Source: an uncultured Acidimicrobiia bacterium (GTDB lineage: Bacteria > Actinomycetota > Acidimicrobiia > Spongiisociales > UBA5794). Taken from it: a stretch of 64,000 bases of DNA. Under the pieces are notes generated by a model, which did not search any database, was not told where the DNA came from, and saw only the letters and a program-made list of their open reading frames with translations. Shown here piece by piece: positions 30,501-49,502 of this stretch (the stretch's first letter is position 1; each line of letters begins with the position of its first letter). The stretch spans positions 355,668 through 419,667 of the forward strand of contig CAWBVU010000005.1 of assembly GCA_963792405.1 (NCBI GenBank), written 5' to 3'. The position numbers and the translations under genes are program-made.

Positions 30501-32262
30501 TTGGCGTACAGCCTGGCGTACAGCCCGTCGGCGCGCCATCAGATTCGCGTGAGTGCCCTCCTCGACGATCCTCCCGTCGTCGATCACGACCAGCCGGTCG
30601 GCGTCGATCACCGTGGACAGCCGGTGGGCGATCACGAGCGTGGTGCGCCCCTCCATGAGCCGGGCCAGGGCCTCCTGGACGAGCGCCTCGGACTCGTTGT
30701 CGAGGGAACTCGTCGCTTCGTCGAGGATGAGGATGCGAGGGTCGGCGAGCAGTGCCCGTGCGATGGCCACCCGCTGTCGCTGGCCACCCGACAGCTTCAC
30801 GCCTCGCTCTCCCACCACCGTGTCGTACCCGTCGGGGAACTCGACGATGAACTGGTCGGCGTTGGCCGCCTTCGCCGCCGTGACGAGGTCCTCGTCCGAT
30901 GCGTCGGGTTTGGCGATGCGGAGGTTCTCCGCGATCGTGCCGGAGAACAGCTGGATCTCCTGGGGGACGGCCGCCATACGGCTGCGGAGGTCCTCGATGT
31001 CGTACGACCGGACATCCAACCCGTCCACCTCGACCACTCCCGAGTCGACGTCGTAGAACCGTGGGATCAGCTGCACGATGGTCGACTTCCCCGCACCCGA
31101 GGGCCCGACGAGCGCCACGACCTCGCCCGGGGAGACGGCGAGGTCGATACCGTGGAGCACCGTGGTGTCCCTCGAGGCATAGGAGAAGGTCACATCGTCG
31201 AAGCGGAACGCTCCTTCGGCGGGACGGGTGGCGCCACCCTTCGAGCCCTCACCCACCTCCGGCGGGGTACGCAGCAGCTCGAAGATCCGATCGGACGCCC
31301 CGAGTGCCTCCTGGATCTCCGAGTAGAGGCTCGCGAACGACCCGATCGCCCCCGCGACCGTGAGGGTGTACAGGAGGAAGGCCACGAGGGCACCAGCGCT
31401 GATCGACCCGGACGCGACGAGGCGCCCCCCTGCCCACAGCACGACGGCGAGCGTCGAGAAGGCCACAAACGTGATCCCGGGGACGAAGAGGGCCCGCATC
31501 CGGGCCCGCCGATACGCGAGCCGGTACGACGACACGACCTCGGCGTCGTAGTCAGAGCTGAGCCTCGACTCCGCAGAGAACCACTTCACCACACGGGCCG
31601 ACGCGATCGACTCGTCTGCGAGCGAGTTGGCCACCGCGAGCTGGTCGTGATAGGCAGTCGACAGCTTCCTCAGCCTCCTCCCGAAGAAGATGGCGCCGGC
31701 CATGATGACCGGGACGAAGGTGAGCACGCTCAACGACAGGAGCGGGCTGATGAGGACGAGCAGGACCACACCGCCGACGAGGGTGATCGCCTGGGACAGG
31801 GCCGTTCCGACGGCGTCCGACACGACCGACTGGACGACCGCCGCGTCGGAGGTGAGGCGTGACGTGATGTCGCCGGTGCGCTTCCCGTCGAAGAACGGCA
31901 CCGGGAGCCGCACGATGCGGTCGAACAGCGCTTTGCGGATGTCGGTGACGACACCCTCGCCCACCACGGACAGGTTGAACGACCGGATGTAGTTGAACAC
32001 CGCCTGGACGGCGAACACGCCGAGCAGCCCGATGGCGTACAGGTTGAGCTGCGACGTGTCCTCGGCAGCGTCGCTGCCGAGGGCGGAGTCGACGAGGCTG
32101 CCCATGACGGCAGGGAACACCAGACCGAGCCCCGCCGCGACGACGACCGACGGCCGTGCCGATGACGAGGCGCCACCGGTACGGCCGGACGAAGGCGAAC
32201 ATCTGGCGCAGATGCGTCCATTGCTCGCTCAGCGATGCCCTTGGTGTCGCGTCGTCGTCCAT
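30459..32262 (-). CDS. ABC exporter, fused permease/ATPase; frameshift near TM1 (~32140)
   Basis: N-terminus MDDDATPRASLSEQWTHLRQMFAFVRPYRWRLVIGTAV reads one frame off the main body (ORF 30459..32120). Six TM helices. Walker A GPSGAGKST, signature LSGGQRQR and Walker B ILILDEATS. Confidence 0.7.
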
Positions 32263-32308
32263 GGCCACGATGGTAGGGCTCCGATTCCCGACCACACCGG
32301 CTGGCACG

Positions 32309-32773: not shown

Positions 32774-32919
32774 GGCGAACAGCGCGGTGAAGACCGCCCG
32801 AACCCTGCGCTCAGGCCGTGCGCCGCATGTCCACGGCGAGCCACACCGCCACCCCGGCGATCGCCACCAATGAGAACACCTGCCCCCGAATCATCCCCCC
32901 AGCCTGCCACATCCCTGTT

Positions 32920-33380: not shown

Positions 33381-33403
33381 CGCACGGCGCCTACGCTCGA
33401 GCC

Positions 33404-34273: not shown

Positions 34274-34330
34274 CGCGGAGGAGGGGAACGGACGACCGTT
34301 CCCCTCCCACTCGTTCGCTGGTTCGTCCGA

Positions 34331-35155: not shown

Positions 35156-35214
35156 GTGCCCAGGGGTCCTCCGTGGGCCACGCCACGCTACCGACTACGC
35201 AGCGCATATGCATC

Positions 35215-35712
35215 GTGACACGAACGCCAATGGGCCGGCTCCCCTCTGCCCTCCGGGCACCTCCCCAAAGGGGAGAGGGAAGCAGAGGTACGGGCACCTC
35301 CCCCAGAAGCAAGGATGAGCGAGCGCAGCGAGCCCAATGCTGTCTCTCCCCGCGGGAGAGACGCGGAGCGAAGCGACGCAGAGAGGGCCGCACCCTCGCA
35401 GACGCGGAGCGAAGCGACGCAGAGAGGGCCGCAGTACCGACGACCTCTGGAAGGACGCCTCCCGCACCCCACTCCCCCCTCTGCCCTCCGGGCATCTCCC
35501 CCAAAGGGGAGAAGGAAGCAAGGTGCGGGCACCTCCCGCGAGGAAGGATGAGCGAGCGCAGCGAGCCCAATGCTGTCTCTCCCCGCGGGAGAGACGCGGA
35601 GCGAAGCGACGCAGAGAGGGCCGCACCCTCGCAGACGCGGAGCGAAGCGACGCAGAGAGGGCCGCACCCTCGCAGACGCGGAGCGAAGCGACGCAGAGAG
35701 GGCCGCGGTGCT
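35215..35712. repeat. Composite hairpin repeat cluster F (its 3' end forms the left edge of the duplicated lasso cassette)
   Basis: H2-linker-H1-H1 modules repeated twice. The last 72 bp are also found at the duplication junction (40969-41040). Confidence 0.85.
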
Positions 35713-35729
35713 CCCGCTACGCTGATCGT

Positions 35730-36871
35730 ATGGCTGCTCCCCATCCGCTGTTGGCGCCGTTGATCGCAGGGGAACCCGTGCCGGACGACGCGGTGATCAC
35801 CCTCGACGTGGTGCGATCGGCTGAGGAGCACGGGGTCTCCGCGCTGCTCGACGACGTCCTCACACGGGGCGACTTCGACATCTCACCTCCGCAGGTGAAG
35901 CAGCGCCTCGCCATGCGAGCCCTCGAAGCCGCCGCGGAGAACCATGCCGCACTGATCGCGGTCGGAGAGGTGCTCGACGTCGCCGGTGCGCTCGGCATCG
36001 AGGTCGCCATCGCGAAGGGTGTGGCCGTGGGGTCCCGGTGCTACCCGAACCCCGACCTTCGGCCCACGATCGACGTGGACGTGTTCGCCGACCCCGGGTC
36101 CCTCGACCGCCTCGGCGACCTCGCCCTCGCCCTCGGGGCGTCTGCGCTCGACAAGATGGCGATCGACGCCATGGTCGCCGAAGGCCGCGTCTTCGAGGTG
36201 ACCCTGCCCACCAGCGGCGCCGACGTCGACCTGCACCGTGACCCGATGAACATGGTGCTGCCGTCGACCCGTGAACGGGACCGCTGGGACCGCACGACGA
36301 TGGTCGCCCTCCCGGACGGGACGAAGGTGCGGACCCTGGACCTCGAGGACACGGTGATCCTCGCCCTGCTGCACCTGTTCCGGGACAACTTCGCGATGCT
36401 GCTCCACGTCAACGACGTCCGCCTGATGATCGAGGCGGGCCCCGACTGGGACGAGGTCGAACGACGGGCGGCCGACGACGGCTGGACCGACATCGTCCGC
36501 TACGCCGCCTGGTTCGCCTCCGACACCTTCGGCATGCCGTCGCCCCTCCCCACCGCCATCGCACGGTGGCGCAAGGCGATCATCGACGCCGTCTGGCCCC
36601 GCTCACTGCTGCTGCAGGGGGCCGACAGCGTGGTGCGCAGCCAGCGCCGCCAGTCCGCCCTCTCGCTCCTCACCGTCCGGCCGCACCGAGCGCCCTCGCC
36701 TCCGCCTACGCCAGGCGGCTCTTCCCGTCCCGGACCGTGATCGACCAGCGCGGCGGCGCCTCCGACCTCTCGTACCCCGTGGCCCTCGCCGACTGGCGCC
36801 TCCGGCAGCGGCGGGAGAACCGGGCGATGATCGACGACGGCGGGGACCCGACACCGGAGCCGCCCCTGTGA
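35730..36871 (+). CDS. Nucleotidyltransferase-family protein (NTP_transf_5-like, lasso-cluster associated), copy 1; frameshift near 36680
   Basis: MAAPHPLLAPLIAGEPVPDDAVITLDV... is co-linear with the intact 379-aa copy 2. The C-terminus reads in the frame of ORF 36566..36871. Confidence 0.6.
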
Positions 36872-37122
36872 GGCGATCCGACCACGCCATGGCCCGCGAG
36901 CTCGACGGCGAGATCATCATCCTCGACGTGCCGTCGGGCCGGTACTTCGGGATCAACGACGTGGGCGCCGTGGTGTGGGGGCTGCTCGACGGGACCCACG
37001 ACCGTGACGCCATCGTCGATGCGGTGACCGCCGAGTTCGACGTCGATCGGGACACCGCCGCGGCCGACCTCGATGCGCTCCTCGACCAGCTCGTCGACGC
37101 CGGCCTCGTGGTGGACCCGTGA
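36868..37122 (+). CDS. PqqD-family protein (lasso B1 leader-recognition element), copy 1
   Basis: 84 aa: ELDGEIIILDVPSGRYFGINDVGAVVWGLLDG...IVDAVTAEFDVD. Confidence 0.75.
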   Translation: MRRSDHAMARELDGEIIILDVPSGRYFGINDVGAVVWGLLDGTHDRDAIVDAVTAEFDVDRDTAAADLDALLDQLVDAGLVVDP

Positions 37123-37536
37123 CCCAGGGGTCGTCCACCGTCGGCAGGATCCTCGTGGCACGAGCAGGTGTCCTGCTGACCCGGGTCGCCCTGCGCACCG
37201 CGGGCTTCGCCGCCACCATCCGAGCCCTGTCCGCGCTGCCACGGGTCCTGCACGCCACGACACAGCTCCCGACCCACGATGGGCAGGAGAGATCGCCACG
37301 GCGGACACCGCCAGGCTCGGAGGGACGTGCCTCGACCGGTCCGTGGCCCTGTGGTTCACCATGCGCCAGCACGGCCTCGACGGCGACCTGCGCATCGGCG
37401 TGGCGAGGAACGGTGACACCCTCGACGCCCACGCCTGGGTCGAGTACCAGCGGCGCGGTCCTCAACGACACCGCCGACGTCGCGCGACCGGTTCGCGGTA
37501 TTCGACGACGACCCGACGGACCTGGTGTTCACGTGA
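37119..37536 (+). CDS. Lasso peptidase B2 (transglutaminase-like Cys protease), copy 1, about 3 frameshifts
   Basis: Co-linear with intact copy 2. The catalytic block GTCLDRSVALWFTMRQHGLDGDLRIGVARNGDTLDAHAWVEY reads in the frame of ORF 37073. The stop TGA overlaps the GTG start of the kinase. Confidence 0.55.
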
Positions 37537-38264
37537 CGGCGGCGGCCACCATCGGCGGGGTCCGCTTCGTCATGGACACGCTCCTGATCGGGACGGGGGA
37601 CACCGGGTTCTCCGACCTCGAGCTCGAGGCCCGCTGGTTCGAGGGCGACGCTCCCGATGCGACGATGCTGGCGGCCCCCATGGGCCTCCACCTGTGGATC
37701 GACCACGAGGCCGGCGTCGTGCACCTCCCGGTCCTCGACGACGAGGTGGAGATGCGGGGCTGGCAGCTGCGCCAGGTGGCCCCGACCGTCGCCGCCTTCT
37801 ACGACCGGCTCACCCTCCACGCGTCCGCCGTGTCCGTCGATGGCCGTGTGCTGGCGTTCGTGGCGGGGTCGGGCACCGGCAAGACGACGCTCGCCTGGGC
37901 CCTCGTCAAGGCCGGCGCCGCGGCGATCAGCGACGACCTCCTCCCCATCCGGTTCGACGACCGCCCCGTCGTCCCGACGGACACCGATCGGCTTCCCGTC
38001 GCGGCGCTGTGCTTCCTCGACCGCCACGGCGGCGACCTCGCCGAGTCCACCCTCGAACCCGCGCTCGCCATGCGACGGCACATCGCCAACGGCTTCGGGG
38101 AGCACGGCGAGCCGAGGGTGTGGGGCTTCCAGTTCGACGCCTACCACCGCCTCGTCACCGAGGTCCCCCACGTCGACCTGGTGGTCCCCGACGACCGCGA
38201 GCAGGTGGCATCCGTCGCCGAGCGACTCATCGACCTCGTCCGCACCGGCGGGCTGGGCGGCTGA
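37533..38264 (+). CDS. HPr kinase/phosphorylase-like kinase (lasso tailoring kinase candidate), copy 1
   Basis: 243 aa with P-loop FVAGSGTGKTTLAWALVKAG. Lies inside ORF 37119..38264. Confidence 0.7.
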   Translation: MTAAATIGGVRFVMDTLLIGTGDTGFSDLELEARWFEGDAPDATMLAAPMGLHLWIDHEAGVVHLPVLDDEVEMRGWQLRQVAPTVAAFYDRLTLHASAVSVDGRVLAFVAGSGTGKTTLAWALVKAGAAAISDDLLPIRFDDRPVVPTDTDRLPVAALCFLDRHGGDLAESTLEPALAMRRHIANGFGEHGEPRVWGFQFDAYHRLVTEVPHVDLVVPDDREQVASVAERLIDLVRTGGLGG

Positions 38265-40029
38265 TGGGCGGCCTCGCCGTCGCCGTCGACTGGTCGGAGC
38301 GGCCCGAACCCTCGGCCTTCGCCCCGATGGTGGAGGCGATGGGACACCGCGGCCGTGCAGGCATCCGGACCGCAGATGCGGGTGCGGCGCTGCTGGCGGA
38401 GGCCCGGCTCCCAAGGGACGGGACGGAGGGCTGGCGCATCGCCACCGCAGGCCCGCTCACCCTCGTCGGTGACCTGCGCCTGTGGCACCTCGATGCCCTC
38501 CGCTCGCTGGCAGGGATCGACGACGCCGACCCCCGGATGCTGGCGCTCCACGCCTGGGCGGCCCACGGCGCAGCCATGATGGACGCCGTCGACGGCGACT
38601 TCGCCTTCGCCATCTGGGACGCCGACACCTCCACCCTCTTCGCCGCCAGGGACCGCTTCGGCGCCAAGCCGCTGTGGATCCAACAGACACCCGGCGGCAT
38701 CCGGCTCGCCTCCGGGACCGGCCAGCTCGTCGCCGCGACCGATCCCCGGCCGGGCCCCGACCCGGTGACGGTCGAGCGGTTCCTCCGCGACGAGGTCGCC
38801 TACGACGACCGCTCGTTCCACGAGGGGATCCGCCGCCTCATGCCCGCCCACCACCTCGTCGCCACCGCCGACGGTGTCACCACGACCCGGTATTGGAATC
38901 CCTCGGAGATCCCCGAACGGCCCGCCACCGACGTGCCCGCCACGTTCCGCCGCCTCGTCGTCGACGCCGTGGCGGACCGCCTCGCCGGTTCCATGCGCAC
39001 CGTCAGCGACCTCTCCGGGGGGCTCGACAGCTCATCGATCACCGCCGCCGCCCACGACCTCGTCCCCGATCGCCTCGACGCCGGGCGGTTCGTCACCGTG
39101 TCGGCGATCGTCCCCGGCACGGAGACCGACGAGTCACCATGGATCGCCGCGACGGTCGCGACCCAGCCGTTCGCCCACCGCGACCACACGGTGGGCATCG
39201 GGGACATCGACGACTACGCCGACGACATGGCCACCACCGGCATGCCCGTCGCCCACCACATCCGGGACCTCGCGGTACGCACCGCGGCGATCGCCGTAGA
39301 GGAGGGCGCCGACCTCGTCCTCACCGGCAACGGCGGTGACGAGGTCGCCGACGACCGGTGGATCCTCAGACACCTCCTGCGCACGGGACGGCTGTGGCCA
39401 TGGGGCCGCACCGTCGCCTCGATGGGCGCCCAGTCGCCGTACGCGGCGCGCTGTGGGCGGCCTCCTCGGTCGGCCAGGCGCTCCCACCCCGTGTCCGTCG
39501 GGCGATCCGCGGACAGTGGCGCCGCACGGACACCGAGGGCGCCGACGACAGCCACATGCCTCCCGGTGCCGGCATGCCCCACGACATCGCGTCACGCCTG
39601 CACACCGGACGGGGCCTCCTGGTGCTCGAGTGGCTCGAGGCCATGTACGCCGCCTCCGGCATCGAGGTGTCCCACCCGTACCTCGACCGCAGGATCGTCG
39701 AGTTCGTCGCCTCCCTCCCCGCAACGGCGATACCGGTGGGCATGGCGAACAAGGCGCTCATCAGGGGCGCGTTCCGGGGTGCCCTCCCCGACACGGTGGT
39801 CGACCGGACCGAGAAGGTGACCGGCAACGAGCACATCGACCGGGTCGTCGCGACCCAGGGACCGGCCTTCCTCGAGCGGTTCCCCGACGTGCCGGACCGG
39901 GCAGCCCCGTTCATCGATCCCGACCGGTATCGGGACGAGGTCGCCCGCTTCCACGCCGACGACGCCGATGCGGCAGGCGATCTGTGGCCCGCATGGTCCG
40001 TCATGCTCTGGCTCGACGGCGCACCCTGA
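38264..40029 (+). CDS. Asparagine-synthetase-like lasso cyclase (C protein), copy 1; frameshift near 39445
   Basis: MGGLAVAVDWSERP... Glutamine-amidotransferase-like N-terminal domain (DGDFAFAIWD, RDRFGAKPLW). PP-loop SGGLDSS. Co-linear with copy 2. Confidence 0.7.
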
Positions 40030-40077
40030 GTCGCCCCACCTCAAGATCCATGGGAAATCGGCCGATGTCGGTACGGT

Positions 40078-40248
40078 ATGCAGGGCATGAAGGCCTACCG
40101 AACGCCCGTTCTGGTGGAACTGGGCACGATGTCGCATGTCACTCGCAAGAGTGGCAGGAAGCGTGACATCCAGACCCTCGCCGCCGCACCCAAGACGGTG
40201 CCGCCCATCTGCGACATCATGCCCTGGCTCCCGCCCTGCAACCCCTAG
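40078..40248 (+). CDS. Candidate lasso-peptide precursor (56 aa), copy 1
   Basis: MQGMKAYRTPVLVELGTMSHVTRKSGRKRDIQTLAAAPKTVPPICDIMPWLPPCNP. The leader matches the conserved Y-x-x-P-x-L-x3-G-x5-T motif (YRTPVLVELGTMSHVT). Sits in a 240-bp gap between C and the methyltransferase. Absent from the ORF track (<60 aa). Confidence 0.5.
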   Translation: MQGMKAYRTPVLVELGTMSHVTRKSGRKRDIQTLAAAPKTVPPICDIMPWLPPCNP

Positions 40249-40272
40249 GCGACCTGCCTCCCTGACCCCGAT

Positions 40273-41052
40273 GTGACGACTCGCCCTATCGTGCGGGCCA
40301 TGGCGCACCCGATCACGACCGAGACGTCCGACACCGCCAGCCGCCTGGTCCGCTGGGAGCTCGCCTCGAGCCGCGCCAGCCAGGCACTCCTCGCAGGGGC
40401 ATGGGGCGCCCACGCAGGGATGTGGCTCGGGCTGATGGGCGACGCCGACCTCGCCGCCGCCACCGACGCCTTCTACCGCACCACCCCCAGGTGGCGCAAC
40501 GACGACTTCGTCCGCAGCGGGCTCGCCCCATGGGAGGCCGCCGCCGTCGAGGCCTGGTTCCCACCCTCTGGCCGTGTCCTCGTCCCGTCGGCGGGCGCAG
40601 CCCGGGAGATGCTCCCCCTCGCCGCGATGGGCTACGACGTCGTGGGCTTCGACCCGTCCCCTCCGCTCGTCGACTTCGGGAACCACGTGCTCACGGCGAC
40701 GGGCACTGCGGGGACGCTGCTGCACAGCCGGGCGAGCGACGTCCCCGAGGGCCTGGAGGGGCCGTTCGATGCGGTCCACTTCGGCTGGGGAGGGATCAGC
40801 CACGTCCGCTGGCGAGGGACCCGTGTCGCCATGCTGCGGTCGGTCCGCGCCCTGTGCGCCGACGGCGCCCCGATGCTGATCTCGTTCCTCACCCGGCCGC
40901 CGGACTCCCGCCGCTTCCACGTGGCCCGTTCCGTCGCCTCCGCCGTGGGTCGCCTCCGAGGCGACCGCGCGAAGCGACGCAGAGAGGGCCGCACCCTCGC
41001 AGACGCGGAGCGAAGCGACGCAGAGAGGGCCGCGGTGCTCCCGCTACGCTGA
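40273..41052 (+). CDS. Class I SAM-dependent methyltransferase, copy 1 (3' end replaced by junction/repeat sequence)
   Basis: Identical to copy 2 up to ...VGRLRGDR (~40968). It then reads into the 72-bp repeat fragment (AKRRREGRTLADAERSD...). Confidence 0.6.
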   Translation: MTTRPIVRAMAHPITTETSDTASRLVRWELASSRASQALLAGAWGAHAGMWLGLMGDADLAAATDAFYRTTPRWRNDDFVRSGLAPWEAAAVEAWFPPSGRVLVPSAGAAREMLPLAAMGYDVVGFDPSPPLVDFGNHVLTATGTAGTLLHSRASDVPEGLEGPFDAVHFGWGGISHVRWRGTRVAMLRSVRALCADGAPMLISFLTRPPDSRRFHVARSVASAVGRLRGDRAKRRREGRTLADAERSDAERAAVLPLR

Positions 41053-41056
41053 TCGT

Positions 41057-42196
41057 ATGGCTGCTCCCCATCCGATGTTGGCGCCGTTGATCGCAGGGGA
41101 ACCCGTGCCGGACGACGCGGTGATCACCCTCGACGTGGTGCGATCGGCTGAGGAGCACGGGGTCTCCGCGCTGCTCGACGACGTCCTCACACGGGGCGAC
41201 TTCGACATCTCACCTCCGCAGGTGAAGCAGCGCCTCGCCATGCGAGCCCTCGAAGCCGCCGCGGAGAACCATGCCGCACTGATCGCGGTCGGAGAGGTGC
41301 TCGACGTCGCCGGTGCGCTCGGCATCGAGGTCGCCATCGCGAAGGGTGTGGCCGTGGGGTCCCGGTGCTACCCGAACCCTGACCTTCGGCCCACGATCGA
41401 CGTGGACGTGTTCGCCGACCCCGGGTCCCTCGACCGCCTCGGCGACCTCGCCCTCGCCCTCGGGGCGTCTGCGCTCGACAAGATGGCGATCGACGCCATG
41501 GTCGCCGAGGGCCGCGTCTTCGAGGTGACGCTGCCGACCAGCGGCGCCGACGTCGACCTGCACCGTGACCCGATGAACATGGTGCTGCCGTCCACCCGTG
41601 AACGGGACCGCTGGGACCGCACGACGATGGTCGCCCTCCCGGACGGGACGAAGGTGCGGACCCTGGACCTCGAGGACACGGTGATCCTCGCCCTGCTGCA
41701 CCTGTTCCGTGACAACTTCGCGATGCTGCTCCACGTCAACGACGTCCGCCTGATGATCGAGGCGGGCCCCGACTGGGACGAGGTCGAACGACGGGCGGCC
41801 GACGACGGCTGGACCGACATCGTCCGCTACGCCGCCTGGTTCGCCTCCGACACCTTCGGCATGCCGTCGCCCCTCCCCACCGCCATCGCACGGTGGCGCA
41901 AGGCGATCATCGACGCCGTGTGGCCCCGCTCGCTGCTGCTGCAGGGGGCCGACAGCGTGGTGCGCAGCCAGCGCCGCCAGTCCGCCCTCTCGCTCCTCAC
42001 GTCCGGCCGCACCGGGGCGCTCACCTCCGCCTACGCCAGGCGTGCGTTCCCGTCCCGGACCGTGATCGACCAGCGCGGCGGCGCCTCCGACCTCTCGTAC
42101 CCCGTGGCCCTCGCCGACTGGCGCCTCCGGCAGCGGCGGGAGAACCGGGCGATGATCGACGACGGCGGGGACCCGGCACCGGAGCCGCACCTGTGA
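41057..42196 (+). CDS. Nucleotidyltransferase-family protein (NTP_transf_5-like), copy 2, intact
   Basis: 379 aa continuous ORF. Confidence 0.7.
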   Translation: MAAPHPMLAPLIAGEPVPDDAVITLDVVRSAEEHGVSALLDDVLTRGDFDISPPQVKQRLAMRALEAAAENHAALIAVGEVLDVAGALGIEVAIAKGVAVGSRCYPNPDLRPTIDVDVFADPGSLDRLGDLALALGASALDKMAIDAMVAEGRVFEVTLPTSGADVDLHRDPMNMVLPSTRERDRWDRTTMVALPDGTKVRTLDLEDTVILALLHLFRDNFAMLLHVNDVRLMIEAGPDWDEVERRAADDGWTDIVRYAAWFASDTFGMPSPLPTAIARWRKAIIDAVWPRSLLLQGADSVVRSQRRQSALSLLTSGRTGALTSAYARRAFPSRTVIDQRGGASDLSYPVALADWRLRQRRENRAMIDDGGDPAPEPHL

Positions 42197-42447
42197 GGCG
42201 ATCCGACCACGCCATGGCGCGGGAACTCGACGGCGAGATCATCATCCTCGACGTGCCGTCGGGCCGGTACTTCGGGATCAACGACGTGGGCGCCCTGGTG
42301 TGGGGGCTGCTCGACGGGACCCGCGACCGTGACGCCATCGTCGATGCGGTGACCGCCGAGTTCGACGTCGATCGGGACACCGCCGCGGCCGACCTCGATG
42401 CGCTCCTCGACCAGCTCGTCGACGCCGGCCTCGTGGTGGACCAGTGA
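42193..42447 (+). CDS. PqqD-family protein (B1), copy 2
   Basis: GTG start overlapping the upstream stop. 84 aa. Confidence 0.75.
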   Translation: MRRSDHAMARELDGEIIILDVPSGRYFGINDVGALVWGLLDGTRDRDAIVDAVTAEFDVDRDTAAADLDALLDQLVDAGLVVDQ

Positions 42448-42857
42448 CCCAGCGGTCGTCCACCGTCGGCAGGATCCTCGTGGCACGAGCAGGTGTCCTG
42501 CTGACCAGGGTCGCCCTGCGCACCGCGGGCTTCGCCGCCACGATCCGAGCCCTGTCCGCCATTCCCAGGGTCATGCGCGCCAGCCCGAGCCCCGATCCAC
42601 GGTGGGCAGGTGAGATCGCCACTGCGGCGACCGGCCGGCTCGGGGGGACGTGCCTCGACCGGTCCGTGGCCCTGTGGTTCACCATGCGCCAGCACGGCCT
42701 CGACGGCGACCTGCGCATCGGCGTCGCCCGCTCCGGTGACACCCTCGACGCCCACTCCTGGGTCGAGTACGACGGTGCGGTCCTCAACGACACGGCCGAC
42801 GTCGCCGACCGGTTCGCGGTGTTCGACGACGACCCGACGGACCTGGTGTTCACGTGA
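42444..42857 (+). CDS. Lasso peptidase B2 (transglutaminase-like), copy 2, intact
   Basis: 137 aa with C...H...D triad context (GTCLDRSVALWF, DAHSWVEYDG). Confidence 0.75.
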   Translation: MTQRSSTVGRILVARAGVLLTRVALRTAGFAATIRALSAIPRVMRASPSPDPRWAGEIATAATGRLGGTCLDRSVALWFTMRQHGLDGDLRIGVARSGDTLDAHSWVEYDGAVLNDTADVADRFAVFDDDPTDLVFT

Positions 42858-43585
42858 CGGCGGCGGCCACCATCGGCGGGGTCCGCTTCGTCATGGACAC
42901 GCTGCTGATCGGGACGGGGGACACCGGGTTCTCCGACCTCGAGCTCGAGGCACGCTGGTTCGAGGGCGACGCTCCCGATGCGACGATGCTGGCGGCCCCC
43001 ATGGGCCTCCACCTGTGGATCGACCACGAGACCGGGGTCGTGCACCTCCCGGTCCTCGACGACGAGGTCGAGATGCGGGGCTGGCAGCTGCGCCAGGTGG
43101 CCCCGACCGTCGCCGCCTTCTACGACCGGCTCACCCTCCACGCGTCCGCCGTGTCCGTCGATGGCCGTGTGCTGGCGTTCGTGGCGGGGTCGGGCACCGG
43201 CAAGACGACGCTCGCCTGGGCACTCGTCAAGGCCGGCGCCGCGGCGATCAGCGACGACCTCCTCCCCATCCGGTTCGACGACCGCCCCGTCGTCCCGACG
43301 GACACCGATCGGCTTCCCGTCGCGGCGCTGTGCTTCCTCGACCGCCACGGCGGCGACCTCGCCGAGTCCACCCTCGAACCCGCACTCGCCATGCGACGTC
43401 ACATCGCCAACGGCTTCGGGGAGCACGGTGAGCCGCGGGTGTGGGGCTTCCAGTTCGACGCCTACCACCGCCTCGTCACCGAGGTCCCCCACGTCGACCT
43501 GGTGGTCCCCGACGACCGCGAGCAGGTGGCATCCGTCGCCGAGCGACTCATCGACCTCGTCCGCACCGGCGGGCTGGGCGGCTGA
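42854..43585 (+). CDS. HPr kinase-like kinase, copy 2
   Basis: 243 aa, same P-loop as copy 1. Confidence 0.7.
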   Translation: MTAAATIGGVRFVMDTLLIGTGDTGFSDLELEARWFEGDAPDATMLAAPMGLHLWIDHETGVVHLPVLDDEVEMRGWQLRQVAPTVAAFYDRLTLHASAVSVDGRVLAFVAGSGTGKTTLAWALVKAGAAAISDDLLPIRFDDRPVVPTDTDRLPVAALCFLDRHGGDLAESTLEPALAMRRHIANGFGEHGEPRVWGFQFDAYHRLVTEVPHVDLVVPDDREQVASVAERLIDLVRTGGLGG

Positions 43586-45350
43586 TGGGCGGCCTCGCCG
43601 TCGCCGTCGACTGGTCGGAGCGGCCCGACCCCTCGGCCTTCGCCTCGATGGTGGAGGCGATGGGACACCGCGGCCGTGCAGGCATCCGGACCGCCAATGC
43701 GGGTGCGGCGCTGCTGGCGGAGGCCCGGCTCCCAAGGGACGGGACGGAGGGCTGGCGCATCGCCACCGCAGGCCCGCTCACCCTGGTCGGTGACCTGCGC
43801 CTGTGGCACCTCGATGCCCTCCGCTCGCTGGCAGGGATCGACGACGCCGACCCCCGGATGCTGGCGCTCCACGCCTGGGCGGCCCACGGCGCCGCCATGA
43901 TGGACGCCGTCGACGGTGACTTCGCCTTCGCCATCTGGGACGCCGACACGTCCACCCTCTTCGCCGCCAGGGACCGCTTCGGCGCCAAGCCGCTGTGGAT
44001 CCAACAGACACCCAGCGGCATCCGGCTCGCCTCCGGGACCGGCCAGCTCGTCGCCGCGACCGATCCCCGGCCGGGCCCCGACCCGGTGACGGTCGAGCGG
44101 TTCCTCCGCGACGAGGTCGCCTACGACGACCGCTCGTTCCATTACGGGATCCGCCGCCTCATGCCCGCCCACCACCTCGTCGCCACCGCCGACGGTGTCA
44201 CCACGACCCGGTACTGGGACCCGTCGGAGATCCCCGAACGGCCCGCCACCGACGTGCCCGCCACGTTCCGCCGCCTCGTCGTCGACGCCGTGGCGGACCG
44301 CCTCGCCGGTCCCAGCGCACCGTCAGCGACCTCTCCGGGGGGCTCGACAGCTCGTCGATCACCGCCGCCGCCCACGACCTCGTCCCCGATCGCCTCGACG
44401 CCGGGCGGTTCGTCACGGTGTCGGCGATCGTCCCCGGCACGGAGACCGACGAGTCGCCCTGGATCGCCGCAACGGTCGCGACCCAGCCGTTCGCCCACCG
44501 CGACCACACGGTGGGCATCGGGGACATCGACGACTACGCCGCCGATATGGCCACGACCGGCATGCCCGTCGCCCACCACATCCGGGACCTGGCGGTGCGC
44601 ACCGCGGCGATCGCGGTGGAGGAGGGCGCCGACCTCGTCCTCACCGGCAACGGCGGTGACGAGGTCGCCGATGACCGGTGGGTCCTCGCCCACCTCCTGC
44701 GGGCGGGACGGCTGTGGCCATGGGGCCGCACCGTCGCCTCGATGGGCGCCCAGTCGCCGTACGCGGCGGCGCTGTGGGCGGCCTCCTCGGTCGGCCAGGC
44801 GCTCCCGCCCCGTGTCCGCAGGGCGATCCGCGGACAGTGGCGCCGCTCGGACACCGAGGGCGCCGACGACAGCCACATGCCTCCCGATGCCGGCATGCCC
44901 CACCACGTCGCGTCACGCCTGCACACCGGACGGGGCCTCCTGGTGCTCGAGTGGCTCGAGGCCATGTACGCCGCCTCCGGCATCGAGGTGTCCCACCCGT
45001 ACCTCGACCGCAGGATCGTCGAGTTCGTCGCCTCCCTCCCCGCCACGGCACTACCGGTGGGTGTGGCGAACAAGGCGCTCATCAGGGAGGCGTTTCGGGG
45101 TGCCCTCCCCGACACGGTCGTCGACCGACAGGAGAAGGTGACCGGCAACGAGCACATCGACCGGGTCGTCGCGACCCACGGACCGGCCTTGATCGAGCGG
45201 TTCCCCGACGTGCCGGACCGGGCGGCGCCGTTCATCGATCCTGACCGGTATCGGGACGAGGTCGCCCGCTTCCACGCCGACGACGCCGATGCGGCAGGCG
45301 ATCTGTGGCCCGCATGGTCCGTCATGCTCTGGCTCGACGGCGCACCCTGA
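43585..45350 (+). CDS. Asn-synthetase-like lasso cyclase (C), copy 2; frameshift near 44305
   Basis: N-terminal part in ORF 43441..45141 up to ADRLAG, then continues in ORF 43995..45350. Confidence 0.7.
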
Positions 45351-45398
45351 GTCGCCCCACCTCAAGATCCATGGGAAATCGGCCGATGTCGGTACGGT

Positions 45399-45569
45399 AT
45401 GCAGGGCATGAAGGCCTACCGAACGCCCGTTCTGGTGGAACTGGGCACGATGTCGCATGTCACTCGCAAGAGTGGCAGGAAGCGTGACATCCAGACCCTC
45501 GCCGCCGCACCCAAGACGGTGCCGCCCATCTGCGACATCATGCCCTGGCTCCCGCCCTGCAACCCCTAG
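45399..45569 (+). CDS. Candidate lasso precursor, copy 2 (identical peptide)
   Basis: Same 171-nt ORF as 40078..40248. Confidence 0.5.
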   Translation: MQGMKAYRTPVLVELGTMSHVTRKSGRKRDIQTLAAAPKTVPPICDIMPWLPPCNP

Positions 45570-45593
45570 GCCACCTGCCTCCCTGACCTCGAC

Positions 45594-46440
45594 GTGACGA
45601 CTCGCCCTATCGTGCAGGCCATGGCGCACCCGATCACGACCGAGACAGCCGACACGCCCAGCCGCCTGGTCCGTTGGGAGCTCGCCTCGAGCCGCGCCAG
45701 CCAGGCACTCCTCGCAGGGGCATGGGGCGCCCATGCGGGGATGTGGCTCGGGCTGATGGGCGACGCCGACCTCGCCGCCGCCACCGACGCCTTCTACCGC
45801 ACCACCCCCAGGTGGCGCAACGACGACTTCGTCCGCAGCGGGCTCGCCCCATGGGAGGCCGCCGCCGTCGAGGCCTGGTTCCCACCCTCTGGCCGTGTCC
45901 TCGTGCCCGTCGGCGGGCGCCGCCCGGGAGATGCTCCCCCTCGCCGCCATGGGCTACGACGTCGTGGGCTTCGACCCGTCCCCTCCGCTCGTCGACTTCG
46001 GGAACCACCTGCTCACGGCGACCGGCACCGCCGGGACGCTGCTGCACAGCCGGGCGAGTGACGTCCCCGAGGGCCTGGAGGGCCCGTTCGATGCGGTCCA
46101 CTTCGGCTGGGGAGGGATCAGCCACGTCCGCTGGCGAGGGACCCGCGTCGCCATGCTGCGGTCCGTCCGTGCCCTGTGTGCCGACGGCGCCCCGATGCTG
46201 ATCTCGTTCCTCACCCGGCCGCCGGACTCCCGCCGCTTCCACGTGGCCCGGTCCGTCGCCACCGCCGTGGGACGCCTCCGAGGCGACCGCAGGCCCATCG
46301 AGCTCGGCGACACCGTCGACGGCAGCTTCGACCACTACTTCACCTTCGACGAGATGGAGTCCGAGCTCACCGACGCGGGGTTCACGACCGTGGCGCGGGT
46401 CGCCCAGCCCTACGCCCACGTCGTCGCCACGGCGTCGTGA
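45594..46440 (+). CDS. Class I SAM-dependent methyltransferase, copy 2, full length (282 aa) but with one frameshift near 45905
   Basis: SAM-binding GYDVVGFD motif. The C-terminal 50 aa (RPIELGDTVDGSFDHYFTFDEMESELTDAGF...) are absent from copy 1. Confidence 0.65.
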
Positions 46441-46460
46441 CCCGACCAGGAGCACGGCTG

Positions 46461-48300
46461 ATGGGGGGCTTCGCCGTCGTCATCGACTGGGACCGCCCCG
46501 TCGACCCCCACGCCACCGACCCGATGATGGCCCTCGTCCCGCACCGGGCCACGGGCGGCACCCGCACCCACGTCACGCCCCATGCCGTACTCGCCGAGGG
46601 CCGTACCACGCACCAGGTGGATGGCGGCCCATGGGAGGTCGCCACCCTCGGACCGCTGGCGATCGTCGGCGACATCCGCCTCTTCGACACGGGCCGCCTC
46701 CGCGCCGCGGCAGGCGGCAGTGCGGCCACCGACGGCCTCGACGACCGCCACCTCCTGCTCGCCGCCTACCGGCGCAGGGGCATCGGGTTCCTCGACGCCG
46801 TCGACGGAGACTTCGCCTTCGTCATCTGGGACGACGACTGAACGCAGTGTCCTCGCCGTCAGGGACCGCTTCGCCGTCAAACCGATCTTCTACGAGGAGA
46901 CAGCCACCGGCATCCGCTTCACCTCGGAGGTCAAGCAGCTGGCGGCGACATCACTGCGACCCCCCGAGCCTGACCCGTTGTCACTCGCCGAGTACGTCGA
47001 CCTACGACTTCCGGGAGAAACGCCGCACGTTCTTGACCGGGATTCAGCGCATCCCTGCATCCGGGCGATCATCGCCGCATGGCCACGCGCCCCGGGCGCT
47101 GCGCTACTGGGACCCGACGCCGCCAACCGCCAGCGCATGAGCCATCGAGCCTTCCCCACCTCTTCCGCGAGCACCTCATCGCCGCCGTCGATCGGCGGCT
47201 CGAGACCGTCCAGCCACACGGTCAGCCAGCTCTCGGGCGGTCTCGACTCCTCGTCCATCGCTGCAGCTGCGGCGATCCTCGCATCCCGCGGAGAGCCCCT
47301 GGCGTTCACCACCGTGTCGGCTGTGTACGACTTCCCGTCGATCGACGAGTCGGGGTGGATCGACGACATCGTCGCCAGCCAGCCCTTCCCCCACCACGAC
47401 TTCGTCCCCGAGGTCGCCGACATCGAGCAGTTCGATGCCGACATGTGGACGGTCGATGGACCGCTCGTCGACCCCATCCGCGACATGAAGCACGTCACCG
47501 CTCGAATCGCCGTCCAGCTCGATGCACCCCTCGCCTGACCGGGGCAGGAGGTGACCACCTTCTCTATCAGGCCCGCTACCTGGGCGACATCCTGCGATCC
47601 GGCCACCATCCGCCGCTTCGCCCGGGACACGACCGTCGTGCACGCGCGATGGTCCGGGATGGGGCTGCTGCCGACCCTCTCTGCCCCGGTACGACAGGCC
47701 ACACCGCCGCCGCGTCCGCTCCATTGGGCGAGGGGTCCGCCGCTGCCAGGAGCCGAGCATGCTGGGCAATCCCTCTTCACCGGGGCAATCGAGCAGGCAT
47801 CGGAATCGCGTCGGACGAATCCGAGCACCTCGGCTTTCGCTCAGCAACACAGAACGCCATCGCATCGGATCTGCGCGAACCGCTGGCTCGCATGGACCAA
47901 TGAGACGACAAGCGATGGTCTTTGGCGCGTCATGGAGTCGATCTCAGCCATCCGTATCTCGACCGGGACCTCGCACAGTTCGTCGTTGTCGATCGATCCG
48001 CTCGATCTACCGTTCGACGGCCGGTCGAAGACGCTCGTCCGCCAAGGCTTCGCGGACACGCTCCCGGGCTCGGTTCTCGGTCGTCGACTCACGACATTCG
48101 CCGATGAGTACATGCAGGAGGCGCTGCGTTCCCAGCGCACGGCAGTACCGGGAGTCGATTCGCCGAGCATGCCGCTGCCTGCGGCCCCGGCCTCATCGAC
48201 GAGGACGCCTACCGAAGCGCACTCAGCGAGTTCGACAGCGCGTGCTCCCGCCCAGAAGATGTGCACGCCTCTGCGTTCCTGGCGGGCCATGGCATGTGAT
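46461..48300 (+). pseudogene. Third, diverged Asn-synthetase-like (lasso cyclase-like) gene, heavily frameshifted
   Basis: MGGFAVVIDWDRPVDPHA...DGDFAFVIWDDD. Then RDRFAVKPIFYEE, SGGLDSSSIAAAA, HLLYQARYLGDILRSG and HPYLDRDLAQFVV lie in at least five different frames. AGGAG RBS. About 35% identity to the C copies. Confidence 0.5.
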
Positions 48301-48399
48301 GGTTGACGCTTGGCGCATACAGGGCCGCCGACGACGTAGGATCCCTGCCCATGGAGTCGAAACCCAAGAGTGCAGGATCGACGCCGCGGGCATACACGC

Positions 48400-49502
48400 C
48401 GCCCCGGCTTCGCCACTTGGGGCTCATGTCGGCGGTCACTCGGAAGACTGGACCTAGGGAACGACGGCCAACTGCCTCGACCCAAGCGGCCAGCCCTAGG
48501 CGCGCCCACCCGACGAGGGTCAGGCTGCGATGACCTCGCCAAGAGGTTGCGATGCGCGCGAACGCCGAACGACCCATCCGGGAGAGTCGTCGGCTCCGTC
48601 GGCACCGTCACGGTCCGGATCGACCCCGACGACACCGAGCGCAGGTCCCATGTCAGCGCCACGGCGTCACCGATCCCCAGAGTGTCCGACAGCACGATCG
48701 TGTCGTCGAGCTGCTCGGCGAGGCCGGCCAGTTCCACCGGTGACCGCACCGTCTTGAGCCGATCCAACAGCGCGAACATCAGCTCCTGCTGACGGGCCAC
48801 TCGCACGGCGTCACCGGTCTCGGCCTGGAACCGCCACTCGCCGTCGACGAGTTCCTGCGTGCGCCGGGACCGGATGTAGGCGAGGGCGTGCTCGCCGTCG
48901 ATCATGCGAGCACCCTGCGGGCACGAGGTCGTAGCCTCCCTCACGCAGGGCGTTTCCGAGCAGATCTGCACGCCGCCGACCGAGTCGACCATCTCGACGA
49001 GCGCATCGAACTTCATCAGGGCGAAGTGGTCGATCGGTACGCCCGAGAAGTCCTCGACCGCGACGGCCACCAGCTCGGCGCCGTTCACCTCGCCCGCACC
49101 CCTCCAGGGTGCGGTCCAGCTTCGTCTCACGACCGGTGCACGGGTCGACGACGACCAGTCGCGGGGAAACGAGACGATCGTCGGTGACCGTTCCCCTCCT
49201 CGGGGAGGAGGTAGAGCAGCACGGCGTCGGCGAACGCCGTCACCTGCTTGTGTAGTCGTTGGCGACGTCTCGTCGGAGCCGACCACGAGGACGGATTGGT
49301 ACGTCGTCGGGGGAACGGTGGCGGTGGCTCCCGCCAGCGTGGTCGTCGACGGAAGGTCTCGACGTGCCTCCTGAAGATCGAAGTCGACACGCTCGACCGA
49401 GTTCCATGCCACGAGTGCCCTCACGCCTTGGTATCCCACGAACGGCGACGAACACGGCCAGAAGGCACCCACTGCAAGCAGGATCTTCCTGCGTCTCGAC
49501 AC
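48400..49502 (-). CDS. LCP (LytR-CpsA-Psr) family protein (C-terminal boundary uncertain)
   Basis: N-terminal TM anchor, then SVLVVGSDETS...IVSFPRD...GVPIDHFALMKF...GEHALAYIRSRR. ORF 47841..49502 runs past the domain, probably through spurious read-through. Possible compensating frameshifts around 49250. Confidence 0.6.

What the first reader, a model, noticed from the sequence alone, without database searches (positions are those of the whole stretch)
40078..40248. Candidate lasso precursor, missed by the ORF track, with a textbook leader motif but an atypical core
The peptide is MQGMKAYRTPVLVELGTMSHVT-R-KSGRKRDIQTLAAAPKTVPPICDIMPWLPPCNP and is identical in both copies (second copy 45399..45569). 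The leader carries the conserved lasso recognition motif Y-x-x-P-x-L-x3-G-x5-T, with the Thr at -2. That would put the cleavage site before Lys1 and allow an Asp7 macrolactam (ring K1-S-G-R-K-R-D7). Residue 1 is usually Gly, Ala, Ser or Cys, so Lys at +1 is unusual. The ring would be very basic and the tail is Pro-rich with two Cys (possible disulfide). Kinase-containing lasso clusters phosphorylate a C-terminal Ser, but this peptide ends in Pro. The kinase and the methyltransferase may therefore act on a different residue (Thr or Ser in the tail, an Asp, or the C-terminal carboxylate).
Basis: partly seen in the sequence, partly recalled or inferred. Interest (0 to 1): 0.75.

Follow-up and report, generated by a model that had tools for sequence, protein, structure and literature searches.

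The report
Lysine-first lasso peptide precursor family
The small gene is real and encodes the precursor of a knotted "lasso" peptide from a large, uncharacterised family known only from uncultured bacteria, whose ring always starts with lysine instead of the usual small residue; in this assembly, however, several of the enzyme genes around it are frameshifted.

Summary
It is coding: GC3 is 0.86 in frame, and differences from orthologues fall mainly at third codon positions.

It belongs to a family of at least 48 clusters (50% identity), all metagenomic "hypothetical proteins". All share Tyr(-17), Pro(-14), Leu(-12), Gly(-8), Met(-6), Val(-3), Thr(-2), then Lys1, Ser/Thr2, Gly3 and Asp7. The genes sit next to lasso genes B1, B2 and C, an HPr-kinase-like kinase, an NTP_transf_5 protein, a methyltransferase and an ABC exporter. 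The proposed Arg(-1)|Lys1 cleavage and Lys1-Asp7 ring are therefore well supported by comparison, but not shown experimentally.

Three points need correcting:
- A third precursor-like ORF (48348-48533) follows a third cyclase gene.
- Lasso-type kinases do not only target a C-terminal Ser. BsfK and LppK phosphorylate core Ser3, so the conserved Ser/Thr2 is the best candidate here.
- The start codon is probably 40087, not 40078.

Caveat: all three cyclase genes and several others in this locus are frameshifted, through assembly error or decay. This is a new variant of a known kind.

The parts
40078..40248 (+). A1 precursor, copy 1 (probable true start ATG 40087, giving 53 aa). Leader runs to Arg23. 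Predicted core is KSGRKRDIQTLAAAPKTVPPICDIMPWLPPCNP.
   Evidence: GC3, codon-position bias; family.
45399..45569 (+). A1 precursor, copy 2, nucleotide-identical to copy 1 (probable start 45408).
40041..40077 (+). Conserved non-coding element upstream of A1: TCAAGATCC (40041-40049) ... CGATGTCGGTAC (40063-40074), with a TAnnnT-like hexamer TACGGT (40072-40077). Probably the precursor's own promoter or operator. The second copy is at 45362-45398.
   Evidence: Alignment of six loci. The sigma-70 consensus scan found nothing. Function is inferred.
35642..46290 (.). Tandem duplication of the 5.3-kb cassette (35642-40968 and 40969-46290), 97% identical. The left edge lies in an interspersed-repeat array. 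The junction truncates the copy-1 methyltransferase.
   Evidence: Substitutions are mostly synonymous: 71 synonymous against 32 non-synonymous codons.
41057..42196 (+). NTP_transf_5 gene (N), copy 2, intact. Copy 1 is 35730-36871, with a frameshift near 36673-36691.
   Evidence: Pfam PF14907, E 4e-31.
42193..42447 (+). B1 (PqqD-type RRE), copy 2. Copy 1 is 36868-37122.
   Evidence: Pfam PqqD, E 1e-21. Best NCBIfam match is lasso_PqqD_Strm, 61.3 bits.
42444..42857 (+). B2 leader peptidase, copy 2, intact. Copy 1 (37119-37533) has about three frameshifts and the highest divergence.
   Evidence: NCBIfam lasso_biosyn_B2, 68.4 bits against a cut-off of 33.
42854..43585 (+). HPr-kinase-like kinase (K), copy 2. 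Copy 1 is 37533-38264; the tool's alignment summary gives 100% identity, but one search counts one non-synonymous codon among 9 synonymous differences, so the two proteins differ at one residue.
   Evidence: (His96...GxSGxGK117[ST]...Asp134-Asp135, same spacing as in BsfK).
43585..45350 (+). C1 lasso cyclase (Asn-synthetase-like), copy 2, one frameshift near 44314. Copy 1 is 38264-40029, one frameshift near 39447.
45594..46440 (+). Class I SAM methyltransferase (MT), copy 2, full 3' end but a frameshift at 45905. Copy 1 (40273-40968) is cut by the duplication junction; its ORF reads on to 41052.
46461..48306 (+). C2, a third and more divergent cyclase gene, with at least two frameshifts as assembled.
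48348..48533 (+). A2, a second-type precursor-like ORF: MESKPKSAGSTPRAYTPPRLRHLGLMSAVTR|KTGPRERRPTASTQAASPRRAHPTRVRLR. The leader and Lys1-Thr2-Gly3 are intact, but as assembled it has Glu6 instead of Asp7. Deleting one nucleotide in GGACCTAGG would give KTGLGND.
30459..32120 (-). MsbA-like ABC exporter, 73% identical to the one in syntenic locus L002. Candidate D transporter. The N-terminus may be frameshifted near 32152.

Best explanation
The ORF encodes the precursor (A1) of a lasso peptide from a previously undescribed family.

Inferred pathway:
1. [quoted passage not shown]
2. B2 cuts after Thr(-2)-Arg(-1).
3. The Asn-synthetase-like cyclase C1 joins the new alpha-amine of Lys1 to the side chain of Asp7. 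This gives a 7-residue ring (K-S-G-R-K-R-D) threaded by a 26-residue tail.
4. The two tail Cys (core Cys22 and Cys31, a C-x8-C aromatic/Pro-rich loop) probably form a disulfide after export.

Three tailoring enzymes are conserved with the family. By analogy with BsfK and LppK, which phosphorylate core Ser3, the HprK-like kinase most likely phosphorylates the conserved Ser/Thr2 on the linear precursor. The NTP_transf_5 protein may then decorate the phosphate, as PsmN does. The methyltransferase has an unknown target.

A second cyclase-precursor pair (C2-A2, short Cys-free core) shares the same B1, B2 and leader.

Shown here: the ORF is coding; the family conservation pattern; the gene neighbourhood; the kinase catalytic motif. 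Inferred: the cleavage site, ring chemistry, threading, modification sites and disulfide.

In this assembly the cyclase genes are frameshifted, so production by this organism is uncertain. Intact versions exist in related loci.
For: ORF and coding signal.

Family size: 8 word-index hits; 48 clusters at 50% identity with E <= 1e-3 (one of which, P0038, is a false hit); 7 loci in GTDB genomes and 3 in metagenomes from one DNA pattern, all true members.

Position statistics on 70 aligned members:
- Tyr(-17) 70/70
- Met(-6) 69/70
- Val(-3) 68/70
- Ser/Thr(+2) 67/70
- Gly(+3) 69/70
- Asp(+7) 63/70
- Lys(+1) in all 72, including the two sequences the alignment pattern missed
- positions 4-6 unconstrained

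Register -17/-14/-12 and Thr(-2): PMC10368454.

Neighbourhood: NTP-B1-B2-K-C-A(-MT-C2-A2) in the window and in L001-L010. B2 passes the NCBIfam lasso B2 cut-off. The cyclases' best NCBIfam match is the lasso cyclase model.

Kinase: His...GxSGxGK[ST]...DD, with His-to-Lys 21 and Lys-to-Asp-Asp 17/18 residues, as in BsfK His148/Lys169/Asp186-187 (PMC10368454).

Precedents for N-proximal Ser phosphorylation: PMC10368454 and PMC13381572. Bulky residue 1 (Trp1, Tyr1) and 7-9-residue rings: bioRxiv 10.1101/2020.11.25.399105.

NCBIfam lasso_leader_L3 hits residues 7-27 at E 0.008, and no competing family hits.
Against: - No experimental product exists for any family member.
- Lys at +1 has no characterised precedent that I know of (my own knowledge; large predicted sets could not be checked).
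- The curated lasso-leader model scores 16.2 bits, below its cut-off of 19.
- Cyclase and kinase scores are far below the curated cut-offs.
- A 7-residue ring carrying three basic side chains and possibly a phosphate is sterically demanding.
- The window's C1 (both copies), C2, B2 and NTP copy 1, and both MT copies are frameshifted or truncated. Other window genes I tested have full-length domains, so the locus may be decaying.
- Ser2 is Glu or Pro in 3 of 70 members, so it cannot be a universal phospho-acceptor.
Confidence: 0.75

Rival explanations
1. The peptide gene is genuine, but the locus in this organism is a decaying, non-producing cluster. The duplicated cassette and the C2-A2 module are accumulating frameshifts, and A1 survives only because it is short.
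For: About 11 frameshifts or truncations lie between 30.5 and 48.5 kb: ABC, RmlD x2, NTP copy 1, B2 copy 1 x3, C1 x2, MT x2, C2 at least 2. The indels are not in long homopolymers. Six other window genes show full-length Pfam domains. A2 lacks Asp7 as assembled. The NCBI record itself splits these genes (P0065, P0066).
Against: Substitutions between the two copies are mostly synonymous (71 against 32 codons). The kinase has 9 synonymous changes and 1 non-synonymous change. Copy 2 has only two frameshifts. Relatives come from long-read MAG projects (MFD MAGs), where indel errors are common, and L001 shows similar split cyclases. The genes I tested as intact were chosen because they were long ORFs, so that comparison is biased.
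Confidence: 0.3
2. It is a lasso-type product with a different linkage. Either the epsilon-amine of the invariant Lys1, not the alpha-amine, closes the ring onto Asp7, or the leader is cut at a neighbouring bond (Thr|Arg, giving an 8-residue ring Arg-...-Asp).
For: Lys1 is strictly invariant, and position -1 is Arg/Gln/Lys/Leu. This calls for a reason beyond a free alpha-amine. Ring positions 4-6 are unconstrained. A few members place Asp at +8.
Against: Every characterised lasso cyclase uses the N-terminal alpha-amine (bioRxiv 10.1101/2020.11.25.399105). The -17/-14/-12/-2 register puts the cut exactly before Lys (PMC10368454). Cutting after Thr would put Val at -2.
Confidence: 0.1
3. The peptide is not cyclised. 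It is a linear phosphorylated RiPP of the LPP kind (RRE + HprK-like kinase + NTP transferase + exporter) that merely shares a locus with lasso genes.
For: [quoted passage not shown] They phosphorylate core Ser3 and often sit next to lasso clusters among polysaccharide genes (PMC13381572). This window is also flanked by RmlD, LytR and glycosyltransferase genes.
Against: No signal-peptidase-I-like gene is present. B2 and one to three cyclase genes are always present, and each precursor gene abuts a cyclase gene. Asp7 is conserved at lasso ring spacing, and Thr(-2) is invariant.
Confidence: 0.05
4. It is a chance ORF in GC-rich DNA.
For: ORFs are abundant in all frames of 68% GC DNA. The loose leader motif alone could occur about 0.5 times per window by my rough estimate.
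Against: Frame-specific GC3, third-position substitution bias, dozens of homologues with conserved residues, conserved position after the cyclase gene, and a conserved upstream element.
Confidence: 0.01

Closest known systems
bsf lasso cluster of Bradymonas sediminis (BsfA/B1/B2/C/D/K/N; PMC10368454)
   Same: Split B1/B2, a cyclase, an ABC transporter, and an HprK-like kinase with the same His/P-loop Lys/Asp-Asp spacing, plus a nucleotidyltransferase. The leader has YxxPxL at -17 to -12. The kinase acts on a ring-proximal hydroxyl residue (Ser3) of the linear precursor, helped by B1.
   Different: BsfA has Gly1-Asp8 and Ile at -2. This family has Lys1-Asp7 and Thr at -2, Ser/Thr at position 2 rather than 3, an extra methyltransferase, and one to three cyclase-precursor pairs. 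No bsf lasso product has been observed either.
Paeninodin / ThcoK / SyanK and pseudomycoidin clusters (PMC9266682, PMC8498205, PMC6993621)
   Same: Lasso clusters with an HPr-kinase homologue. Pseudomycoidin also has an NTP-transferase homologue (PsmN) that adds hexose to the phosphate.
   Different: Those precursors end in a conserved Ser, which is the phospho-acceptor. The window peptide ends in Pro, and only 2 of 72 relatives end in Ser. Those start with Ala or Gly, not Lys.
LPP linear phosphorylated RiPPs of Bacillota (PMC13381572)
   Same: The module of RRE + HprK-like kinase + NTP transferase + MsbA-like exporter, phosphorylation of an N-proximal core Ser (Ser3), and a setting among polysaccharide genes.
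   Different: LPP uses a signal-peptidase-I-like leader peptidase and no cyclase. This locus has B2 and cyclases and a lasso-spaced Asp.
Fusilassin, cellulassin and halolassin (bioRxiv 10.1101/2020.11.25.399105)
   Same: Actinobacterial lasso peptides with a large side chain at core position 1 (Trp1, Tyr1) and split B1/B2.
   Different: They have aromatic rather than cationic residue 1, 8-9-residue rings onto Glu, and no kinase, NTP transferase or MT.
Seven-residue-ring lasso peptides (xanthomonins, huascopeptin) and class IV lasso peptides with a tail-internal disulfide (LP2006; felipeptins, PMC7689547)
   Same: Ring size 7 lies within the natural 7-9 range. Both Cys lie in the tail, as in class IV.
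   Different: Those start with Gly and lack the tailoring set. The comparison with xanthomonins, huascopeptin and LP2006 rests on my own knowledge and was not tested here.

Membership tests
Lasso peptide precursor (A) | Leader recognition motif Tyr(-17)-x-x-Pro(-14)-x-Leu(-12) | tested here: met
   Tyr7, Pro10 and Leu12 with Lys24 as +1. Tyr(-17) is in 70/70 and Leu(-12) in 60/70 relatives. Register as in PMC10368454.
Lasso peptide precursor (A) | Thr at the penultimate leader position (-2) | tested here: met
   Thr22. It is present in all 72 relatives, although the alignment pattern required it.
Lasso peptide precursor (A) | Asp/Glu acceptor at core position 7, 8 or 9 | tested here: met
   Asp30 is core position 7. 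Asp is at +7 in 63/70, and most of the rest have Asp at +8.
Lasso peptide precursor (A) | Small residue (Gly/Ala/Ser/Cys) at core position 1 (usual, not absolute: Trp1 and Tyr1 exist) | tested here: not met
   Lys at +1 in 72/72. Precedents for bulky residue 1: bioRxiv 10.1101/2020.11.25.399105.
Lasso peptide precursor (A) | Encoded beside B1 (PqqD RRE), B2 (transglutaminase-like peptidase) and C (Asn-synthetase-like cyclase) | tested here: met
   Window and loci L001-L010. B2 scores 68.4 bits against a cut-off of 33.
Lasso peptide precursor (A) | Match to a curated precursor or leader model at its cut-off (NCBIfam NF033521 lasso_leader_L3) | tested here: not met
   16.2 bits against a cut-off of 19, E 0.008. 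It is the only family hit. RODEO itself could not be run.
Lasso peptide precursor (A) | Threaded [1]rotaxane product with an N-terminus-to-side-chain isopeptide | not testable with these tools
   Needs MS/MS, NMR and a carboxypeptidase/heat assay.
Paeninodin-type phosphorylated lasso peptides | HprK-like kinase with the conserved His / P-loop Lys / Asp-Asp motif | tested here: met
   His96, G-x-S-G-x-G-K117-T, Asp134-Asp135, with the same spacing as in BsfK (PMC10368454).
Paeninodin-type phosphorylated lasso peptides | Conserved C-terminal Ser as phospho-acceptor | tested here: not met
   The peptide ends ...CNP. Only 2 of 72 relatives end in Ser.
Bsf/LPP-type N-proximal phosphorylation | Hydroxyl residue next to the leader-core junction that the kinase phosphorylates (Ser3 in BsfA and LppA) | tested here: inconclusive
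   Ser/Thr is at +2 in 67/70, but it is position 2 rather than 3, and 3 members have Glu or Pro. Phosphorylation cannot be tested here.
Class IV lasso peptides | One disulfide between two Cys that both lie in the tail | tested here: inconclusive
   Two tail Cys with C-x6-10-C spacing are conserved in all long-type members. Disulfide formation cannot be tested here.

The most novel reading that the evidence does not exclude
The invariant Lys1 is kept because its epsilon-amine is used chemically. It could be the ring-closing nucleophile, giving a side-chain-to-side-chain Lys1-Asp7 lariat with a free N-terminus. Or it could be the site modified by the family-specific methyltransferase, next to a phosphorylated and possibly glycosylated Ser/Thr2. 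Either would define a new structural class of lasso peptide with a decorated ring, made by clusters that carry one to three dedicated cyclase-precursor pairs served by a single B1/B2.
Probability: 0.12. Interest if true: 0.8.

Novelty: new variant of a known kind. Interest (0 to 1): 0.58.

Why it matters
If these peptides are made as predicted, they would be the first natural lasso family with a cationic Lys at the ring-forming N-terminus. This would extend the known substrate rules of lasso peptidases and cyclases.

The family is sizeable (at least 48 clusters at 50% identity). It is confined to uncultured Acidimicrobiia and other Actinomycetota, plus a Thermoanaerobaculia MAG. No curated model covers it, so standard annotation misses it.

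It also offers a compact system for an open question: what the kinase + NTP-transferase (+ methyltransferase) tailoring module does in RiPP clusters. The NTP transferase is still functionally unresolved in the Bsf and LPP systems. A second question it could address is how one B1/B2 pair serves several cyclase-precursor pairs.

Tried and rejected
- The look-up of encoding contigs for the exact window peptide: not on record.
- Sigma-70 promoter and intrinsic terminator scan around the ORF: nothing found. The promoter idea rests only on cross-locus conservation.
- Rfam on the whole window: no family.
- PDB sequence searches with MT, kinase and NTP transferase: only marginal hits.
- AlphaFold2 model of an MT homologue plus Foldseek against the PDB: a generic class I methyltransferase. 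Hits mix N-, O- and C-methyltransferases, so the target cannot be inferred. The weak NCBIfam hit to the daptide MTase (27.7 bits against a cut-off of 175) is likewise uninformative.
- Pfam on the peptides: only a sub-threshold DUF5972 hit.
- Literature check for Lys1 lasso peptides: hits were Lys1x residue numbers or class V Lys2-to-C-terminus links made by a clostripain-like enzyme, which is absent here.
- The LassoPred supplement and the RODEO, paeninodin and fusilassin papers are not held. So 'Lys1 is unprecedented' rests on my own knowledge.
- P0038 (284 aa) from the profile search is a repeat-derived false hit.
- Alternative cleavage registers were rejected. Ser25 or Gly26 as +1 would give 6- or 5-residue rings, outside the natural 7-9 range.
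- Reading A2 in the +1 frame gives a canonical KTGLGND but then an implausibly long tail. This is left unresolved.

Full report
**Observation.** They lie in a 5.3-kb tandem duplication (35642-40968 / 40969-46290; 97% identity, 149 substitutions plus indels). The longest difference-free run of the duplication (330 nt, 39921-40251) spans the 3' end of the cyclase gene, the spacer and the whole small ORF. A second run of 305 nt elsewhere means this is suggestive only.

The ORF is coding. GC3 is 0.86 in its frame against 0.57 and 0.52 in the others. Against orthologues the differences pile up at third positions, for example 7/4/22 by codon position against L001, with 18 synonymous and 9 non-synonymous codons.

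**Surroundings.** Pfam and NCBIfam give the cassette NTP_transf_5 (N), PqqD (B1), Transglut_core3 (B2), HPr-kinase-like (K), Asn-synthetase-like cyclase (C1), small ORF (A1), class I methyltransferase (MT). The genes are packed end to end, so there is no room for another precursor inside the cassette.

- B2 of copy 2 passes the curated lasso-B2 cut-off (68.4 against 33 bits).
- B1's best match is the lasso PqqD chaperone.
- The cyclases' best match is the lasso cyclase model, though far below its cut-off.
- The kinase carries His96...G-x-S-G-x-G-K117-T...Asp134-Asp135. The spacing matches the motif reported for BsfK: His148, Lys169, Asp186-187 (PMC10368454).

Downstream of the duplication lies a third, more divergent cyclase gene (C2, 46461-48306). 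It is followed by a third precursor-like ORF at 48348-48533 with the same leader and Lys-Thr-Gly. Upstream on the minus strand is an MsbA-like ABC exporter (30459-32120).

**Related sequences.**
- The peptide has an exact copy in the public record (unnamed; 451-kb contig) and an 85% relative on a metagenome contig.
- A profile search of the word-indexed database gave 8 members.
- A full HMMER search of 1.84 billion representatives gave 48 clusters at E <= 1e-3. One of them (P0038) is a repeat artefact.
- One degenerate DNA pattern recovered 7 loci from GTDB species genomes and 3 from JGI metagenomes, all true members and no chance hits. The GTDB loci are Actinomycetota and Acidimicrobiia MAGs plus one Thermoanaerobaculia MAG.
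- All named members are 'hypothetical protein' from metagenomes.

On 70 aligned non-redundant sequences:
- Tyr(-17) 70/70
- Leu(-12) 60/70
- Met(-6) 69/70
- Val(-3) 68/70
- Arg(-1) 55/70 (otherwise Gln, Lys or Leu)
- Ser(+2) 57 and Thr(+2) 10
- Gly(+3) 69/70
- Asp(+7) 63/70, with most of the rest at +8

Lys(+1) is present in all 72 sequences, including the two the alignment pattern missed. Pro(-14), Gly(-8), Thr(-2) and Lys(+1) were required by my pattern in the 70. Ring positions 4-6 are free.

Two subtypes exist. Long cores (31-54 aa) have two tail Cys in a C-x6-10-C aromatic/Pro loop, as in the window's A1. Short Cys-free cores (15-23 aa) often carry [HWF]-P-[TS] near the end; this is the A2 type.

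**Synteny.** Intact loci L002 and L003 show N-B1-B2-K-C-A. L002 continues with MT-C2-A2, where A2 is KSGPLWDGSSEQNRTP. tblastn across 13 loci shows that K and MT recur and that every precursor gene abuts a cyclase gene. The window's proteins are 60-70% identical to those of Acidimicrobiia MAG loci.

**Leader/core boundary.** With Lys24 as +1, Tyr7, Pro10 and Leu12 fall at -17, -14 and -12, and Thr22 at -2. PMC10368454 gives this register as invariant for lasso leaders and uses it to place the core. Taking Ser25 or Gly26 as +1 would give 6- or 5-residue rings, outside the natural 7-9 range (bioRxiv 10.1101/2020.11.25.399105). The family-wide Lys-x5-Asp spacing agrees with the boundary. The Arg(-1)|Lys1 cut and the Lys1-Asp7 macrolactam are therefore the best-supported reading, by inference. 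Bulky residue 1 has precedents (Trp1, Tyr1; same preprint). As far as I know, Lys1 has none among characterised lasso peptides. I could not check the large predicted sets.

**Start codon and expression.** Six A1-type loci share a non-coding element: TCAAGATCC-N13-CGATrTCGGTAC, followed by a TAnnnT-like hexamer. It ends 9-12 nt before the conserved ATG-AAG. In the window the hexamer TACGGT ends at 40077, directly before the first ATG. Homologues begin MK.Y. So Met4 (40087) on a leaderless or near-leaderless transcript is the likelier start. This is inference, and the sigma-70 scan was silent.

**Tailoring.** However, BsfK (a lasso cluster with K and N) and LppK (RRE + K + N) phosphorylate core Ser3 on the linear precursor, and B1 stimulates BsfK (PMC10368454, PMC13381572).

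Here only 2 of 72 peptides end in Ser, while Ser/Thr2 is conserved in 67 of 70. Ser2 is therefore my preferred phospho-site, at roughly 40-50% confidence. Alternatives are Thr10 in the long-type D-x-[EQ]-T motif or the [HWF]-P-[TS] of short cores.

The NTP_transf_5 protein may decorate the phosphate, as PsmN does. Its function is unresolved even in the studied systems.

The MT belongs to a tiny family (11 database hits). Its AlphaFold2 model (pLDDT 71.8) matches N-, O- and C-methyltransferases alike. I cannot name its target.

**State of the locus.** Comparison with intact L002 proteins and a GC3 frame plot show frameshifts or truncations in these genes:
- ABC exporter (near 32152)
- RmlD-like gene (2)
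- N copy 1
- B2 copy 1 (about 3)
- C1 copy 1 (near 39447) and C1 copy 2 (near 44314)
- MT copy 1 (cut by the duplication junction) and MT copy 2 (45905)
- C2 (at least 2)

A2 reads Glu6 instead of Asp7 as assembled. Removing one nucleotide gives KTGLGND. Copy 2 is the better preserved.

Substitutions between the copies are mostly synonymous (71 against 32 codons). The kinase has 9 synonymous changes and 1 non-synonymous change. Both copies were therefore under selection until recently. Six other window genes have full-length domains, although I chose them as long ORFs. Relatives come from long-read MAG projects. I cannot decide between consensus indel errors and real decay, and I give decay about 0.3.

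**Comparison and novelty.** The closest studied system is the bsf cluster. It shares the enzyme set and the kinase motif, and its kinase phosphorylates a ring-proximal Ser. It differs in having Gly1-Asp8, Ile(-2), no MT and a single cyclase. Paeninodin-type membership fails on the defining C-terminal Ser. LPP membership fails because this locus has B2 and cyclases and lacks a signal-peptidase-I-like gene. The curated lasso-leader model scores just under its cut-off (16.2 against 19 bits), so annotation pipelines leave these peptides unnamed.

I rate this a new variant of a known kind. It is a lasso family defined by Lys1-Ser/Thr2-Gly3...Asp7, with a conserved kinase/NTP-transferase/methyltransferase set and multiple cyclase-precursor pairs. 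Interest is moderate to high for RiPP specialists. Nothing here is categorically new, and no product has been shown.

Noticed in passing
window 18572-19018, 22592-23129, 27241-27516, 27882-28444, 33009-33355 (inverted), 35241-35706, 40969-41034: An interspersed GC-rich repeat family with units of about 41-88 nt and core palindrome TCTCTCCCCGCGGGAGAGA fills many intergenic regions. There is no Rfam match. The left edge of the 5.3-kb duplication lies inside one array. It looks REP/MITE-like.
   Followed up: partly
window 48348-48533: A second-type precursor ORF (A2) follows a third cyclase gene. The leader and Lys-Thr-Gly are intact, but as assembled it has Glu6 instead of Asp7. A one-nucleotide deletion restores KTGLGND. 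The tail still contains the short-type HPTR motif.
   Followed up: partly
window 30500-48500: Frameshifts are concentrated in the lasso region (ABC, RmlD-like, N, B2, C1 x2, MT, C2). Other window genes I tested are intact. This is either local assembly error or real decay.
   Followed up: partly
window 34331-35155 (-): A secreted trypsin-like serine protease gene sits between the RmlD-like gene and N. It is absent from the syntenic locus L002.
   Followed up: no
window 8756-9859: A 321-nt tandem repeat of 3.4 copies (96% matches) lies inside a 1047-aa ORF on the minus strand.
   Followed up: no
L002 10308-11278: An antitoxin-like 69-aa ORF and a Fic/Doc-domain gene are inserted between A1 and the methyltransferase. 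The Fic ORF's C-terminal part aligns to the N-terminus of the window's MT.
   Followed up: no
family members P0013, P0015, P0016, P0018, P0021, P0023, P0024, P0026: A subset of long precursors ends in a Gly/Ser-rich extension finishing ...GSGSF or ...GTGPF after the second Cys. This may be a follower sequence or a further modification site.
   Followed up: no
L008 1733-2151; L001 6112-6285, 10001-10162, 12283-12440: Related loci carry two adjacent A1-type genes (L008) or three cyclase-precursor pairs (L001). Multiplication of the C-A module recurs in the family and is not special to this window.
   Followed up: partly
window 1-3600, 25700-26600, 33400-34270, 48700-52750: The cluster is embedded among cell-envelope polysaccharide genes: WecG and GT4 glycosyltransferases, LytR_cpsA_psr x2, an RmlD-like gene, a Polysacc_synt_2 gene and a UDP-glucose-dehydrogenase-like gene. 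PMC13381572 notes the same setting for kinase/NTP-transferase RiPP clusters.
   Followed up: no
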